This document shows positions 1,286 through 43,209 of a DNA stretch of 47,382 nt, in pieces. Below the pieces are notes generated by a model that worked only from the letters and a program-made list of their open reading frames with translations, was not told the DNA's origin and ran no database searches. Made by a program: the position numbers and the translations under genes. The first letter of the stretch is position 1. The number at the start of each line of letters is the position of its first letter. Origin of the DNA: a virus (Duplodnaviria; Heunggongvirae; Uroviricota; Caudoviricetes); IMG/VR virus record IMGVR_UViG_2684623189_000004, one strand, 5' to 3'.

Positions 1286-1535
1286 AACCGCAGCACGTTC
1301 TTGCTTAAGACGTGCTGCGGCATAATCCCAATGATTACTCCCTGACAGGGTTCGTAGGCCACTCAATATCAGGTGCAGTTGATGTATCAACACGGTTCAG
1401 CAACACCCGATACTTTTTCCAGGCTTCCAGCAATGAGGTTTCTTCCTCCGTTGCAATTTCCAGATCTGCAGCATCCTGAAGCGGCGCAATATGCTCACTG
1501 GCTACCTGCATCAGGTTGTTTTTTGTTTCTTCCGC
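1286..1535. repeat. direct repeat copy 2 (3' end of intact tfa plus downstream hairpin)
   Basis: matches 236..485; perfect 10-bp stem CCGCAGCACG/CGTGCTGCGG at about 1287..1319. Confidence 0.7.
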
Positions 1536-1919
1536 CTCCCGGATCCGGAACATTTTTTCTGCTTCCGTATCCTTCACCCAGGCTGTGCCGTTCCACTTCT
1601 GAAACTCCCCTTCCGGCGATAACCAGGTAACATTTTCCGGTAACGGACCGAGTTCAGAAATAAATAACTCGTCCCCTGACGCTACGTCATAAACCGTTTT
1701 ACCCCGATGGTCTTCAACGAGATGCCACGATGCCTCATCACTGTTGAAAACAGCCACAAAGCCAGCAGGAATATCTGGTGGTGCAATATCGGTACTGTTT
1801 GCTGGCAGACCTGTATGAGGCGGAATATATGCGTCACCTTCACCAATAAATTCATTAGTTCCGGCCAGCAGATTATAAATTTTTATGGTCCGTGCTTGTT
1901 CACTCATTCTGAATGCCAT
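1335..1919 (-). CDS. tfa: tail fiber assembly protein Tfa
   Basis: 194 aa; immediately downstream of stf; resembles lambda Tfa as recalled. Confidence 0.85.
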
Positions 1920-29544: not shown

Positions 29545-29790
29545 TGCCCACAAGAAAACCCCTCCGGAGAGGGGCTAAAGCCGCGTATCTGTATCATCAT
29601 GCACATGGTGCCGGGTGCCTCCCGGTGAGTTCAGCCCGGTGCCACTAAACCCGCGTCATTCTCGTTTTGATAATCAGAGATTATACCGTCACCAGTCGCC
29701 CCTCCGCTCAGGGGGATTCACCATGCGAAATTTTTTTAACAAATGCCCAGTCTGACAGGCAACTGTCAACTTACTGAATTGTGAGCAACA
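29545..29790. repeat. diverged tandem repeat unit A (ends in GC hairpin plus T-tract on minus strand)
   Basis: shares CCCCTCCGGAGAGGGG, CATGGTGCCGGGTGCCTCCCGGTGA, GCCCCTCCGC.CAGGGGGATTCACCATG, CTGAATTGTGAG blocks with unit B. Confidence 0.6.
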
Positions 29791-30035
29791 TAGCATTTAA
29801 CGGGGAACCTGTTTTCTGCAGTAAAAAGGCCCACCGGAGCGGATGGGCCTGGAAGGATAGCGGTCATGTGATGCCGGTTTCCCGGTAACTCAGCACCGGT
29901 ATCTGAGTCAACGTTTTCTCTACTGGGTCATTTCCGATACGCCCTGCCTGCTGACAGGCTTTCATCACATCTGAAAATATAGCACCCTGACTGATACTGT
30001 AGTACCTAAGGTTCCAGAAACTGTGATGTATCCGG

Positions 30036-30265
30036 CACAGAAAAGCCCCTCCGGAGAGGGGCTGGAGAGTGGCGCTATGTGCCATTGCATGGTGCCGGGT
30101 GCCTCCCGGTGAATTCAGTACCAGCACCTGAATCCGCGATTATCCCATATACCTACTCGCTGATTGCCCCTCCGCACAGGGGGATTCACCATGCCAGTTT
30201 CTTTTAACAAACTCCCCGCAAACCAGACAACAGTCAACCGCCTGAATTGTGAGACATTTAAAAAA
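30036..30265. repeat. diverged tandem repeat unit B
   Basis: same blocks as unit A; immediately downstream (minus strand) of tRNA-Arg(UCU). Confidence 0.6.
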
Positions 30266-30298: not shown

Positions 30299-30375
30299 TG
30301 GCGCGTTGTACTGGATTCGAACCAGTGACCGATTGCTTAGAAGGCAATTGCTCTGTCCGGCTGAGCTAACAACGC
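30299..30375 (-). tRNA. argO: tRNA-Arg (anticodon UCU)
   Basis: 77 nt; 7-bp acceptor GCGTTGT/ACAACGC, anticodon loop CCTTCTAAG, T-loop GGTTCGAATCC, 3' CCA. Confidence 0.85.
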
Positions 30376-30388
30376 AGGATACAGATAA

Positions 30389-30466
30389 TGGACCGCCTTC
30401 GGGGACCCGAACTCCGCGCAACCAGCTTCGAAGGCTGGCGCTCTTTCCTGATGAGCTAATGGCGGT
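30389..30466 (-). tRNA. argN: tRNA-Arg (anticodon UCG), atypical stems
   Basis: anticodon arm CCAGC-CTTCGAA-GCTGG, D-arm GCTC...GAGC, encoded CCA; mismatches in acceptor and T stems; exact ends uncertain. Confidence 0.55.
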
Positions 30467-30472
30467 ATGTGA

Positions 30473-30548
30473 TGGTGGCCCTTGCTGGATTTGAACCAGC
30501 GACCTGGCGATTATGAGTCGCTCGCTCTCACCACTGAGCTAAAGGGCC
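30473..30548 (-). tRNA. ileZ: tRNA-Ile2 (anticodon CAU, lysidine type)
   Basis: 76 nt GGCCCTTTAGCTCAGTGG...CTCATAATCG...GGTTCAAATCC...GGGCCACCA; close to E. coli ileX as recalled. Confidence 0.85.
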
Positions 30549-42233: not shown

Positions 42234-42455
42234 ATGCAGAAACGAGAACCCGTCATCATCGCGCCAGACTATACCAATGATGAACTTTATGAGTGGATGC
42301 GCCAGAAAATTAATGCAGCGCAGGATTTGAAATGGGCCAATGAAGCCAGGGCTAAGCAGGCTGAAAATCTGTCCGCTCTGGAGCAGGATATCACCAATCT
42401 GGAAAAAGCAGCGGCATTAAGCATTGCCAGAATGATTACATACCCGCGTGAATAG
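42234..42455 (+). CDS. hypothetical early-left protein
   Basis: 73 aa; AGGA RBS 7 nt upstream of ATG. Confidence 0.4.
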   Translation: MQKREPVIIAPDYTNDELYEWMRQKINAAQDLKWANEARAKQAENLSALEQDITNLEKAAALSIARMITYPRE

Positions 42456-43020
42456 CTAACCAACGAAGCTAAGGTTGGTAATTAAGGAGTTCTCCACGGG
42501 TGAGGTGGAGTGCGTGCGCCGGACACGGGTGAGCATCCGGCACTGACAGTTTACTGAAAGGATATTTCCCTGAAAAGTCAGACCATAACGCGAAAGCGCA
42601 CGGCGAGGTAGCTGGTTCATAGATAGCCTGTCGTTAAATTTTCGTCGACCGTGCGCTTCCGGTTGTGGCAATCCGCGAAATGGCGCGGCGGTAAGTATGG
42701 CGGGGTTATTCCTTCCACCGTTGAGGACACCGGGTTGTCAGGTTGACCATACGCTTAAGTGACAACCCCGCTGCAACGCCCTCTGTTATCAATTTTCTGG
42801 TGACGTTTGGCGGTATCAGTTTTACTCCGTGACTGCTCTGCCGCCCTTTTTAAAGTGAATTTTGTGATGCGGTGAATGCGGCTAAGCGCACGCGGAACAG
42901 TTAAAACCAAAAACAGTGTTATGGGTGGATTCTCTGTATCCGGCGTTAATTGTTAACTGGTTAACGTCACCTGGAAGCACCAGGCACCGCATCACAAAAT
43001 TCATTGTTGAGGACGCGATA
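42456..43020 (+). other. 565-bp non-coding, GC-rich, hairpin-dense region in the early-left operon (candidate structured RNA or regulatory element)
   Basis: no credible ORF on either strand; 10-bp stem AAGCGCACGG/CCGTGCGCTT, 9-bp stem GGGTTGTCA/TGACAACCC, 18-bp perfect inverted repeat at 42857..42874 and 42984..43001. Confidence 0.4.
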
Positions 43021-43209
43021 ATGGAAACGTTATTACCAAACGTTAATACGTCTGAAGGTTGTTTTGAAATTGGTGTCACTATCAGTAACCCTGTATTTAC
43101 TGAAGATGCCATTAACAAGAGAAAACACGAACGGGAGCTATTAAATAAAATATGCATTCTTTCAATGTTGGCCCGTTTACGTCCGATACAAAAAGGATGC
43201 TGGCAATGA
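43021..43209 (+). CDS. hypothetical small protein
   Basis: 62 aa; GAGGA RBS; stop overlaps next start (ATGA). Confidence 0.4.
   Translation: METLLPNVNTSEGCFEIGVTISNPVFTEDAINKRKHERELLNKICILSMLARLRPIQKGCWQ

What the first reader, a model, noticed from the sequence alone, without database searches (positions are those of the whole stretch)
42456..43020. 565-bp ORF-free, hairpin-dense region with an 18-bp perfect inverted repeat in the early-left operon
Between two small early genes lies a long GC-rich stretch with no credible ORF on either strand but several long perfect stems (10 bp AAGCGCACGG/CCGTGCGCTT; 9 bp GGGTTGTCA/TGACAACCC) and an 18-bp perfect inverted repeat (GAATTTTGTGATGCGGTG / CACCGCATCACAAAATTC) enclosing about 110 bp, ending 20 nt before the next start codon. 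This could be a structured non-coding RNA, a regulatory or attenuator element, or a miniature inverted-repeat element remnant.
Basis: seen in the sequence. Interest (0 to 1): 0.55.

Follow-up and report, generated by a model that had tools for sequence, protein, structure and literature searches.

The report
DicF small-RNA spacer of dicBF operon
The "ORF-free hairpin-dense region" is the long-known untranslated spacer of a prophage cell-division-inhibitor operon that carries the DicF small RNA and its RNase III/RNase E processing stems; the only new point is that the big inverted repeat closes an unannotated relative of the prophage RNA family STnc100.

Summary
A 19-bp perfect inverted repeat lies at 42856-42874/42985-43003; 0 of 1000 shuffles exceed 12 bp. 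There are four perfect stems of at least 9 bp against 0.34 expected, and no conserved ORF.

The region is not unknown. It is the ydfC-dicB intergenic spacer of a Qin-type dicBF operon, 100% identical to E. coli ATCC 11775 and 97.9% to K-12. Rfam places DicF at 42795-42846 (76.7 bits).

Published K-12 work describes three DicF species:
- a 53-nt DicF with an RNase E 5' end and an intrinsic terminator;
- a 72-nt form whose 3' end is made by RNase III;
- a ~190-nt precursor whose 5' end is made by RNase III.

By arithmetic, the 72-nt end (42865) falls inside the left arm of the inverted repeat.

One point appears unreported in the papers I searched. The inverted repeat is the extended closing helix of a ~150-nt multi-hairpin RNA module related to STnc100. 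Support comes from reciprocal covariance-model hits and compensatory pairs. The module has an invariant scaffold and a hypervariable centre, and it is conserved upstream of dicB, kil or isrK/C4 in lambdoid left operons.

Verdict: already known, with a modest new twist.

The parts
42234..42455 (+). ydfC (73 aa), upstream flanking gene of the spacer
   Evidence: ORF; annotated ydfC in the 100%-identical ATCC 11775 record and in K-12.
42456..43020 (+). Untranslated ydfC-dicB spacer of the dicBF (pL-analogue) operon
   Evidence: 97.9% identical to the K-12 Qin spacer. [quoted passage not shown] No conserved ORF.
42583..42668 (+). Inferred RNase III site that makes the 5' end of the ~190-nt pre-DicF.
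   Evidence: MFE helix 42583-42608/42643-42668, 95% paired in 90 homologues, with only one-sided or wobble changes. A 190-nt species ending at the terminator starts at about 42657-42662, in the 3' arm. PMC10448788 shows its 5' end is RNase III-dependent, and its Fig. S1 sequence starts at window 42609.
42732..42768 (+).
   Evidence: 97.9% paired in homologues with no double changes. Function not assigned.
42794..42846 (+). DicF sRNA (53 nt). Its 5' end lies at an RN|WUU-type RNase E motif (AU|UUU, 42792-42796). Its 3' hairpin plus the U-run at 42847-42851 forms the intrinsic terminator.
   Evidence: Rfam RF00039, 76.7 bits against GA 48, full length. Annotated misc_RNA in phage Tritos. Processing described in PMC5069750 and PMC9438474. 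The RNase E motif match is my reading of the sequence.
42854..43005 (+). Inverted-repeat cassette, an STnc100-like structured RNA module:
- P1: 42854-42874 with 42985-43005
- P2: 42878-42893
- hypervariable centre: 42894-41
- P4: 42942-42968
- P5: 42970-42984
   Evidence: Folds; pair counts. Rfam STnc100 37.7 bits, E about 1e-6, below GA 47. A covariance model built from cassettes alone finds the window's two true STnc100 copies.
42857..42874 (+). Left arm of the 18-bp inverted repeat. The inferred RNase III cut lies after 42865 and gives the 3' end of the 72-nt DicF species.
   Evidence: 42794 + 71 = 42865. The 72-nt RNase III-made species is reported in PMC5069750 and PMC9438474. The mapping onto the arm is my arithmetic.
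42985..43002 (+). Right arm of the inverted repeat. The expected staggered RNase III cut near 42995/42996 would leave a ~25-nt unstructured dicB leader.
   Evidence: Inference from the usual 2-nt 3' overhang geometry of RNase III and the pairing register i+j=85859. Not measured.
43009..43013 (+). Shine-Dalgarno GAGGA of dicB, 7 nt before the ATG. The extended base of P1 reaches it in the MFE.
   Evidence: Sequence; fold.
43021..43209 (+). dicB (62 aa), downstream flanking gene
   Evidence: Pfam PF05358 DicB, 127.4 bits; annotations.

Best explanation
The region is the untranslated spacer between ydfC and dicB in the dicBF operon of a Qin-like lambdoid prophage. This operon is the analogue of the lambda early-left (pL) operon. 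The spacer is transcribed as part of the polycistronic ydfABC-dicF-dicB-ydfD RNA and serves as a processing platform.

1. A ~23-bp imperfect hairpin (42583-42668) is cut by RNase III. This gives a ~190-nt pre-DicF.
2. RNase E cuts at AU|UUU (42793/42794) and makes the mature 5' end.
3. The DicF hairpin plus U-run (to 42851) terminates most transcripts, giving the 53-nt DicF.
4. Transcripts that read through form the long helix P1 (the 19-bp perfect inverted repeat, 21-30 bp with wobbles). RNase III cuts P1 about 9 nt into the left arm. This gives the 72-nt DicF and detaches the dicB-ydfD mRNA with a short leader that exposes its Shine-Dalgarno sequence.

What is shown elsewhere: the RNA species and their nuclease dependence were shown in K-12, which is 97.9% identical. 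What is inferred here: placing those ends on these particular stems.

The interior of P1 is not a random loop. It is a conserved five-element fold (P1, P2, variable arm, P4, P5) homologous to the prophage sRNA family STnc100/PasD. RNase III cutting in P1 should release it as a ~130-nt RNA. Its own function is unknown.

The overall density of hairpins may also keep Rho from loading on 565 nt of untranslated RNA. This last point is inference only.
For: Identity of the locus:
- Rfam DicF at 76.7 bits.
- 100% and 97.9% identity to ATCC 11775 and K-12 Qin.
- DicB, DUF1391 (YdfA) and DUF1482 (YdfD) Pfam hits.
- Tritos phage annotation.

Processing, from the literature:
- 53-nt and 72-nt species and their RNase E and RNase III dependence.
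- 190-nt RNase III-dependent species, with no internal promoter found.

Geometry:
- The 72-nt end falls in the left arm and the 190-nt start falls in the 3' arm of the long hairpin.
- P1 is at least 21 bp in all 127 left-operon copies, but only 9 bp in the two copies that sit among tRNA genes.

RNA-level selection on P1:
- The C-G/G-C, U.G and G.U combinations at 42870-42871 all pair.
- The Rac-type arm keeps pairing through a bulged A and a G.U pair.
- Compensatory changes occur in Citrobacter and in L081/L126.

Relation to STnc100.
Against: - I could not read Faubladier et al. 1990, so the exact mapped cleavage nucleotides are not confirmed. '190 nt' and '72 nt' are sizes, not coordinates. 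The paper's 'positions 813/814' numbering could not be converted to window coordinates.
- The upstream hairpin shows no double compensatory changes; the homologues are too similar.
- The effect of P1 cleavage on dicB expression is untested anywhere I could find.
- Near-invariance of the P2/P4/P5 sequences is more than an RNase III site needs. The processing model therefore does not explain the whole element.
Confidence: 0.82

Rival explanations
1. The cassette is first of all a gene for an independent functional RNA: an STnc100/PasD-like sRNA or a protein-binding RNA. The long P1 is merely its release mechanism from the operon transcript. The hypervariable centre would carry specificity and the invariant P2/P4/P5 would be a scaffold. 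This reading is compatible with the main explanation rather than exclusive of it.
For: - The interior is near-invariant across dicB, kil and isrK contexts and in Citrobacter, while the centre has at least 6 unrelated variants.
- The fold is shared with STnc100 and supported by covariation.
- STnc100 and PasD are detected RNAs. The preprint reports PasD as an abundant RNA in Hfq RIL-seq of EPEC, and STnc100 was RT-PCR-detected in vesicles.
- The same interior occurs with a short P1 among tRNA genes (L081/L126).
Against: - I found no report of a transcript of this size from the dicF-dicB spacer.
- The cassette has no terminator or 3' U-tail of its own, unlike STnc100.
- The function of STnc100 itself is unknown.
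Confidence: 0.3
2. The region is an attenuator or riboregulator. Alternative pairings decide between termination at DicF and read-through to dicB, or they mask the dicB ribosome-binding site until cleavage.
For: - The MFE of pre-DicF pairs 42688-42706 with 42824-42844, the 3' half of the terminator; this is 95% paired in homologues.
- The RNAalifold consensus pairs 42768-42772 with 42809-42813, part of the 5' half of the terminator stem.
- The extended base of P1 reaches the first G of the Shine-Dalgarno sequence.
- The DicF seed 42799-42807 is complementary to 42963-42971.
Against: - No covariation supports any of these alternative helices.
- No Rfam riboswitch or leader hit.
- The cassette site complementary to DicF is invariant even in loci that lack the DicF seed, so that complementarity may be coincidence.
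Confidence: 0.15
3. The cassette is a miniature inverted-repeat transposable element remnant or another DNA-level element, such as a cruciform, operator or recombination site.
For: - 19-28-bp terminal inverted repeats enclose about 110 bp.
- There are many copies per genome: median 2, up to 10.
- Truncated copies exist (L041, L049, L060).
Against: - Copies are syntenic, not dispersed: each follows a terminator hairpin and precedes dicB, kil or isrK.
- There is no flanking direct repeat.
- Arm substitutions keep G.U pairs, which are mismatches in DNA and on the minus strand.
- Strand asymmetry of the covariance model: 177 against 41 bits.
- The copy number is plausibly explained by multiple lambdoid prophages per genome, since copies are syntenic; I did not count prophages.
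Confidence: 0.03
4. The region is a decayed or frameshifted protein-coding gene, or it encodes a small leader peptide.
For: - PGAP annotates a 54-aa minus-strand hypothetical protein in ATCC 11775.
- A 26-codon ORF (MRLSARGTVK...) starts at 42876, with synonymous-looking variation at Leu3.
Against: - The minus-strand ORF is broken by frameshifts or stops in most homologues, and its length equals chance.
- The cassette ORF reads the conserved 3' block in all three frames across centre variants. Its stops fall after 13 to 50 codons, one copy has an ATA start, and it has no Shine-Dalgarno sequence.
Confidence: 0.02

Closest known systems
[quoted passage not shown] 1990; Balasubramanian et al. 2016; Ragunathan et al. 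2023)
   Same: Same gene order (ydfA-ydfB-ydfC-dicF-dicB-ydfD), 97.9% nucleotide identity over the whole 565 bp, and the same DicF sequence, stems and inverted repeat.
   Different: Here the prophage is largely intact, with a LexA-type (S24) repressor instead of DicA. K-12 has U.G and G.U pairs where this copy has C-G and G-C in P1.
RNase III processing helices in phage and operon transcripts (lambda N leader, T7 early R sites, rpsO-pnp, metY-nusA)
   Same: A helix of at least 20 bp in an untranslated inter-cistronic stretch separates an upstream RNA from a downstream mRNA. This comparison rests on established knowledge and on the review.
   Different: Here the helix closes a conserved multi-hairpin module rather than a simple loop. 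The consequence for the downstream gene is untested.
STnc100 (Rfam RF02076) and PasD prophage sRNAs
   Same: - Same architecture: P1, GAAU junction, P2 (5 bp with a bulged A and a UNNGC loop), a variable arm, P4, one A, then P5 (CCNGG AGGCA CCNGG) stacked on P1.
- Reciprocal covariance-model hits and compensatory pairs.
- Both are prophage-borne and lie in untranslated parts of long phage operons.
   Different: - Scores below Rfam's gathering threshold: 30.8-43.8 against 47 bits.
- P1 is 21-30 bp instead of 8-9 bp.
- No terminator of its own after P1.
- Located in the early-left operon before dicB, kil or isrK, instead of the late region near tRNA, Q and lysis genes.

Membership tests
DicF RNA (RF00039) | Covariance-model score at or above Rfam's gathering score over the full model | tested here: met
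   76.7 bits against 48, model positions 1-52 of 52, at 42795-42846.
DicF RNA (RF00039) | [quoted passage not shown] | tested here: met
   Pfam DicB, DUF1391 and DUF1482.
DicF RNA (RF00039) | 3' hairpin followed by a U-run (intrinsic terminator) | tested here: met
   Rfam structure line and TTTTT at 42847-42851. The simple terminator scan missed it because its loop rule is 3-8 nt.
DicF RNA (RF00039) | Antisense complementarity to ftsZ (and xylR, pykA, manX) mRNAs | not tested
   The targets are outside the window. The DicF sequence is identical to K-12 DicF, for which this was shown (PMC5069750).
RNase III processing site | Double-stranded helix of about two turns (at least 20 bp) | tested here: met
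   P1 is 19 bp perfect and 27-30 bp with wobbles, one bulge or one mismatch in dicB-type copies. The upstream hairpin has 23 bp in the MFE.
RNase III processing site | RNase III-dependent ends in vivo at the helix | not testable with these tools
   Published for K-12 as sizes (72 nt and 190 nt). Both sizes place the ends inside the two helices by arithmetic.
STnc100 (RF02076) | Score at or above Rfam's gathering score | tested here: not met
   37.7 bits against 47 in the window; 30.8-43.8 bits in six other cassette variants.
STnc100 (RF02076) | Shared secondary structure supported by compensatory changes | tested here: met
   On 92 distinct rows:
- P2 is flipped at 3 of 5 pairs.
- Inner P1 is flipped at 4 pairs.
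- P4 shows 3-5 Watson-Crick pair types at 6 positions.
- P5 is U-A against G-C.
- 95.7% of cells are paired.

Caveat: the sequences were fished with exact P4/P5 motifs, and the alignment is fitted to the model.
STnc100 (RF02076) | Reciprocal detection by a model built without STnc100 sequences | tested here: met
   Model R1, built from 19 cassettes, hits 29595-29731(-) at 49.5 bits (E about 1e-11) and 30087-30194(-) at 41.2 bits (E about 2e-9). The next unrelated hit scores 14 bits.
STnc100 (RF02076) | Own 3' terminator hairpin (model positions about 170-206), and late-region or tRNA-proximal context | tested here: not met
   No hairpin plus U-run follows P1; the Rfam alignment runs into dicB coding sequence. 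The context is the early-left operon.
MITE / transposable-element remnant | Dispersed copies at unrelated sites with target-site duplications | tested here: not met
   127 of 130 complete copies precede dicB, kil or isrK and follow a terminator plus T-run. The flanks CTTTTTAAAG and TTGTTGAGGA share no direct repeat.
Protein-coding gene or pseudogene | Reading frame conserved among homologues | tested here: not met
tRNA / tRNA-like gene | Recognised by a tRNA finder | tested here: not met
   ARAGORN finds nothing in 42300-43200.

The most novel reading that the evidence does not exclude
The 19-30-bp inverted repeat is the elongated closing helix of a previously unrecognised early-left-operon branch of the STnc100/PasD structured-RNA superfamily. 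RNase III cutting in that helix would release a ~130-nt RNA with an invariant P2/P4/P5 scaffold and a hypervariable central arm. This would be a third product of the dicBF operon, besides DicF and DicB, with a function of its own such as trans-acting regulator, protein decoy or processing chaperone. The same module is kept immediately upstream of three different host-toxic modules: dicB, kil and isrK/C4. It also carries a 9-nt perfect match to the DicF seed, so it could act as a co-transcribed DicF sponge.
Probability: 0.3. Interest if true: 0.6.

Novelty: already known. Interest (0 to 1): 0.3.

Why it matters
As flagged, the finding re-discovers one of the oldest known bacterial sRNA loci, so by itself it matters little.

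The by-product may be useful to people who work on prophage sRNAs. It gives a structural reason for the long RNase III helix downstream of DicF. It links the dicF-dicB and kil leaders to the STnc100/PasD family, whose function is unknown. It shows that this fold occurs in both the early-left and the late operons of lambdoid phages. It also suggests a directly testable extra RNA product of an operon that controls host cell division.

Tried and rejected
1. Small ORF inside the cassette (42876-42956, MRLSARGTVK...). Rejected: the frame of the conserved 3' block differs among centre variants, the stops vary, and one copy has an ATA start.
2. Minus-strand 71-aa ORF, which PGAP calls a hypothetical protein. 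Rejected: it is broken in most homologues and its length equals chance.
3. MITE. Rejected on synteny, absence of a target-site duplication, wobble pairs and strand asymmetry.
4. tRNA-like gene. ARAGORN found nothing.
5. Internal promoter for dicB. The consensus scan gives no plus-strand site in the spacer and is at chance level overall. Ragunathan et al. also found none.
6. The terminator scan did not flag the DicF terminator because of its loop-size rule; I relied on Rfam and the U-run instead.
7. Faubladier et al. 1990, Faubladier and Bouche 1994 and Conter et al. 1996 are not held, so the original cleavage maps could not be read.
8. The 'positions 813/814' numbering of PMC10448788 could not be converted to window coordinates. 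Counting from the transcription start would give a 333-nt species, not 190 nt.
9. Covariation for the upstream hairpins was uninformative: only one-sided changes.
10. The genome-contig scan gave only 9 loci, all Escherichia, Shigella or Citrobacter plus one probably mis-binned MAG.

Full report
**1. Observation**

The sequence features are as described, with small corrections.

- The perfect inverted repeat is 19 bp (42856-42874 / 42985-43003). It extends to 28 nt at 86% complementarity and encloses 110 nt.
- The two shorter perfect stems are at 42594-42603 / 42649-42658 (10 bp) and 42732-42740 / 42760-42768 (9 bp).
- In 1000 dinucleotide-preserving shuffles of 42456-43020, no perfect stem exceeded 12 bp. 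Stems of at least 9 bp averaged 0.34, against 4 observed.
- The RNA folds much better than shuffles: z = -4.6 for the whole region and z = -5.1 for 42847-43030.
- The region is not GC-rich in absolute terms (50.8% against 51.5% for the window). It is richer than the neighbouring small genes at 41-48%.
- The longest ORF is 71 aa on the minus strand, partly annotated by PGAP as a hypothetical protein in ATCC 11775. That length is what shuffles give at the median. The ORF is interrupted by frameshifts or stops in most of 90 distinct homologues.

**2. What it is**

Rfam places DicF (RF00039) at 42795-42846 with 76.7 bits against a gathering score of 48.

The flanking ORFs are ydfC (42234-42455) and dicB (43021-43209; Pfam DicB 127 bits). 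ydfA (DUF1391) and ydfB lie upstream. ydfD (DUF1482) and an 823-aa exonuclease lie downstream.

The 565 bp are 100% identical to E. coli ATCC 11775 and 97.9% identical to the ydfC-dicB spacer of the Qin prophage of K-12. 4728 of 5426 complete E. coli genomes have a match. Phage Tritos carries the same stretch with DicF annotated.

So the finding is the 'long untranslated region containing dicF' of the dicBF operon (PMC5069750). This operon is the pL-operon analogue of a lambdoid prophage.

**3. How the stems map onto what is known**

The literature on K-12 reports three things.

- A 53-nt DicF. Its 5' end is made by RNase E and its 3' end by Rho-independent termination.
- A 72-nt DicF. Its 3' end is made by RNase III from the full-length mRNA.
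- A ~190-nt precursor. Its 5' end is RNase III-dependent and it accumulates when RNase E is inactivated. No internal promoter was found (PMC10448788).

With DicF starting at 42794, the 72-nt end is 42865. That is the ninth nucleotide of the left arm of the 18-bp repeat (42857-42874). The register is the same in K-12.

A 190-nt RNA ending at the terminator (42846-42851) starts at about 42657-42662. In the MFE, that stem is the core of a 23-bp imperfect hairpin (42583-42608 / 42643-42668). The sequence shown in Fig. S1 of PMC10448788 begins at window 42609, which is consistent with this placement.

The DicF 5' end lies at AU|UUU, which matches the RN|WUU preference of RNase E. This is my reading of the sequence, based on established knowledge.

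These placements are arithmetic inferences. I could not read the 1990 mapping paper.

Both helices are long enough for RNase III. With the usual 2-nt stagger, the partner cut in the right arm (about 42995/42996) would leave dicB a 25-nt leader carrying its GAGGA (43009-43013).

**4. The inverted repeat closes a conserved RNA module**

I fished public phage and genome contigs with a motif from the interior. This gave 130 complete copies and 71 distinct sequences.

- *Upstream context.* All but two of the copies that retain their 5' half follow a GGCGG...CCGCC terminator hairpin and a T-run.
- *Downstream context.* The copies precede, by about 20 nt, one of three different things. These are dicB (104 copies), kil/kilR of Rac and Stx phages (13 copies), or a leader containing Rfam isrK and C4 antisense RNA hits (10 copies).
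- *Conservation pattern.* The two ends of the interior are almost invariant. The centre has at least six unrelated variants.
- *Not a peptide.* A possible 26-codon ORF is not conserved in frame.
- *Common fold.* Unconstrained MFE folds of 21 centre variants all give the same architecture. The order is P1, GAAU, P2, variable arm, P4, A, then P5 stacked on P1.
- *RNA-level changes in P1.* All four C/U and G/A combinations at 42870-42871 pair through G.U. The Rac-type arm pairs through a bulged A and a G.U. Citrobacter and L081/L126 show double compensatory changes.

**5. Relation to STnc100**

At E-value threshold, Rfam's STnc100 model (RF02076) matches the cassette over its full length. The score is 37.7 bits (E about 1e-6), below the gathering score of 47. 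Six other cassette variants score 30.8-43.8 bits.

The window has two bona fide STnc100 copies (161 and 136 bits) next to three tRNA genes in the late region.

*Reciprocal test.* I built a covariance model from 19 cassettes only. With filters off over the whole window, it finds those two copies at 49.5 and 41.2 bits (E about 1e-11 and 2e-9). The next unrelated hit scores 14 bits. The model also finds about 70 STnc100-type copies in other phage contigs.

*Covariation between the two groups, on 92 distinct aligned sequences.*

- P2 is G-C in cassettes against C-G or U-A in STnc100 at three of five pairs. The bulged A and the UNNGC loop are kept.
- Four inner P1 pairs flip.
- P4 shows three to five Watson-Crick pair types at six positions.
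- P5 is U-A against G-C.
- 95.7% of cells are paired.

Caveats: both sets were collected with exact motifs in P4/P5, and the alignment was fitted to the model.

*Linking copies.* Two copies (L081, L126) have the cassette-type interior but only a 9-bp, compensated P1. They sit among tRNA genes, which links the two contexts.

*P1 length.* P1 is 21-30 bp in every left-operon copy, against 8-9 bp in STnc100. This fits the idea that the long helix is an added RNase III handle.

The cassette fails STnc100's Rfam threshold, lacks its terminator and has a different context. I therefore call it a relative, not a member.

A 2026 preprint relates STnc100 to PasD but does not mention dicF, dicB or kil. 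I found no paper describing the dicF-dicB spacer this way.

**6. Mechanism and rivals**

*Best supported.* The spacer is a processing platform. The steps are listed under the best explanation. The RNA species and nuclease dependence were shown in K-12. The assignment to these helices is inferred.

*Not explained by processing alone.* The near-invariance of P2/P4/P5 and the hypervariable centre are not accounted for. This leaves room for an independent function of the excised module (probability about 0.3).

*Attenuator-type reading.* It rests only on MFE alternatives without covariation. It also draws on a 9-nt perfect complementarity between the DicF seed (42799-42807) and the cassette (42963-42971). 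The cassette side of that match is invariant even where the seed is absent.

*Rejected.* The MITE and coding explanations are rejected.

**7. Verdict**

The flagged feature is real, strongly non-random, and already known as the DicF locus with its RNase III and RNase E processing sites.

The new element is modest: an unannotated STnc100-like module enclosed by the inverted repeat and conserved upstream of dicB, kil and isrK. It is a lead rather than a discovery.

Noticed in passing
window 29546-29755(-), 30033-30223(-), 30302-30548(-): Two Rfam STnc100 copies (161 and 136 bits) lie directly downstream, on the same strand, of three tRNA genes in the late region. A sok antitoxin RNA is at 35069-35243(-) and an IS009 RNA at 1378-1576(-).
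   Followed up: partly
L183, L142, L155, L148 (IMG/VR contigs): STnc100-type modules occur as 3-5 tandem copies about 250 nt apart in some phage contigs. Their function is unknown.
   Followed up: no
L004 2952-3006, L006 3209-3259, and many loci: In kil-type and isrK-type loci, DicF's place is taken by the same kind of terminator hairpin (GGCGG..CCGCC plus T-run) with unrelated 5' 'seed' sequences, such as GTGTGTAGTC, CATGTTGATTACC and GTGAAGTACCAG. Rfam DicF scores are below threshold (41.1 and 35.6 bits). This looks like a family of DicF-like 3'-end sRNAs with swapped seeds.
   Followed up: partly
L009 3236-3424, L015 5208-5396: In a third context, the cassette is followed by Rfam isrK (61-67 bits) and C4 antisense RNA (76-80 bits) hits instead of dicB or kil.
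   Followed up: no
window 42799-42807 and 42963-42971: The DicF 5' seed GGUGACGUU is perfectly complementary to AACGUCACC in the cassette, which spans the 3' strand of P4, the single A, and the start of P5. The match extends to 12 of 14 nt. It could be an intramolecular mask, a sponge site or coincidence.
   Followed up: partly
window 42495-42504 and 42524-42533: The direct repeat CACGGGTGAG occurs twice, 29 nt apart, each time in or at the loop of a predicted hairpin just after ydfC. This first ~120 nt of the spacer is the least conserved part among homologues.
   Followed up: no
L041, L049, L060: These are truncated cassettes that keep only the 3' half from TATCCGGCG/TATCCGACG onward, joined to unrelated upstream sequence.
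   Followed up: no
MT713136.1 (Aeromonas phage AP1), PP818812.1 (Actinobacillus phage), L013 (Veillonella parvula MAG): E. coli-type dicF or cassette sequence, up to 98.4% identical, appears in records assigned to unrelated hosts. Contamination or mis-binning is the likely cause.
   Followed up: no
window 42688-42706 with 42824-42844: The MFE of the pre-DicF RNA pairs an upstream GGCGG-rich segment with the 3' half of the DicF terminator (18 bp, 95% paired in homologues, almost no covariation). This could be an inactive-precursor or anti-terminator conformation.
   Followed up: partly
window 42456-42620(-): RefSeq/PGAP annotates a 54-aa hypothetical protein (WP_001331716.1) on the minus strand of the spacer in ATCC 11775. 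The frame is not conserved, so this is probably a spurious call.
   Followed up: yes
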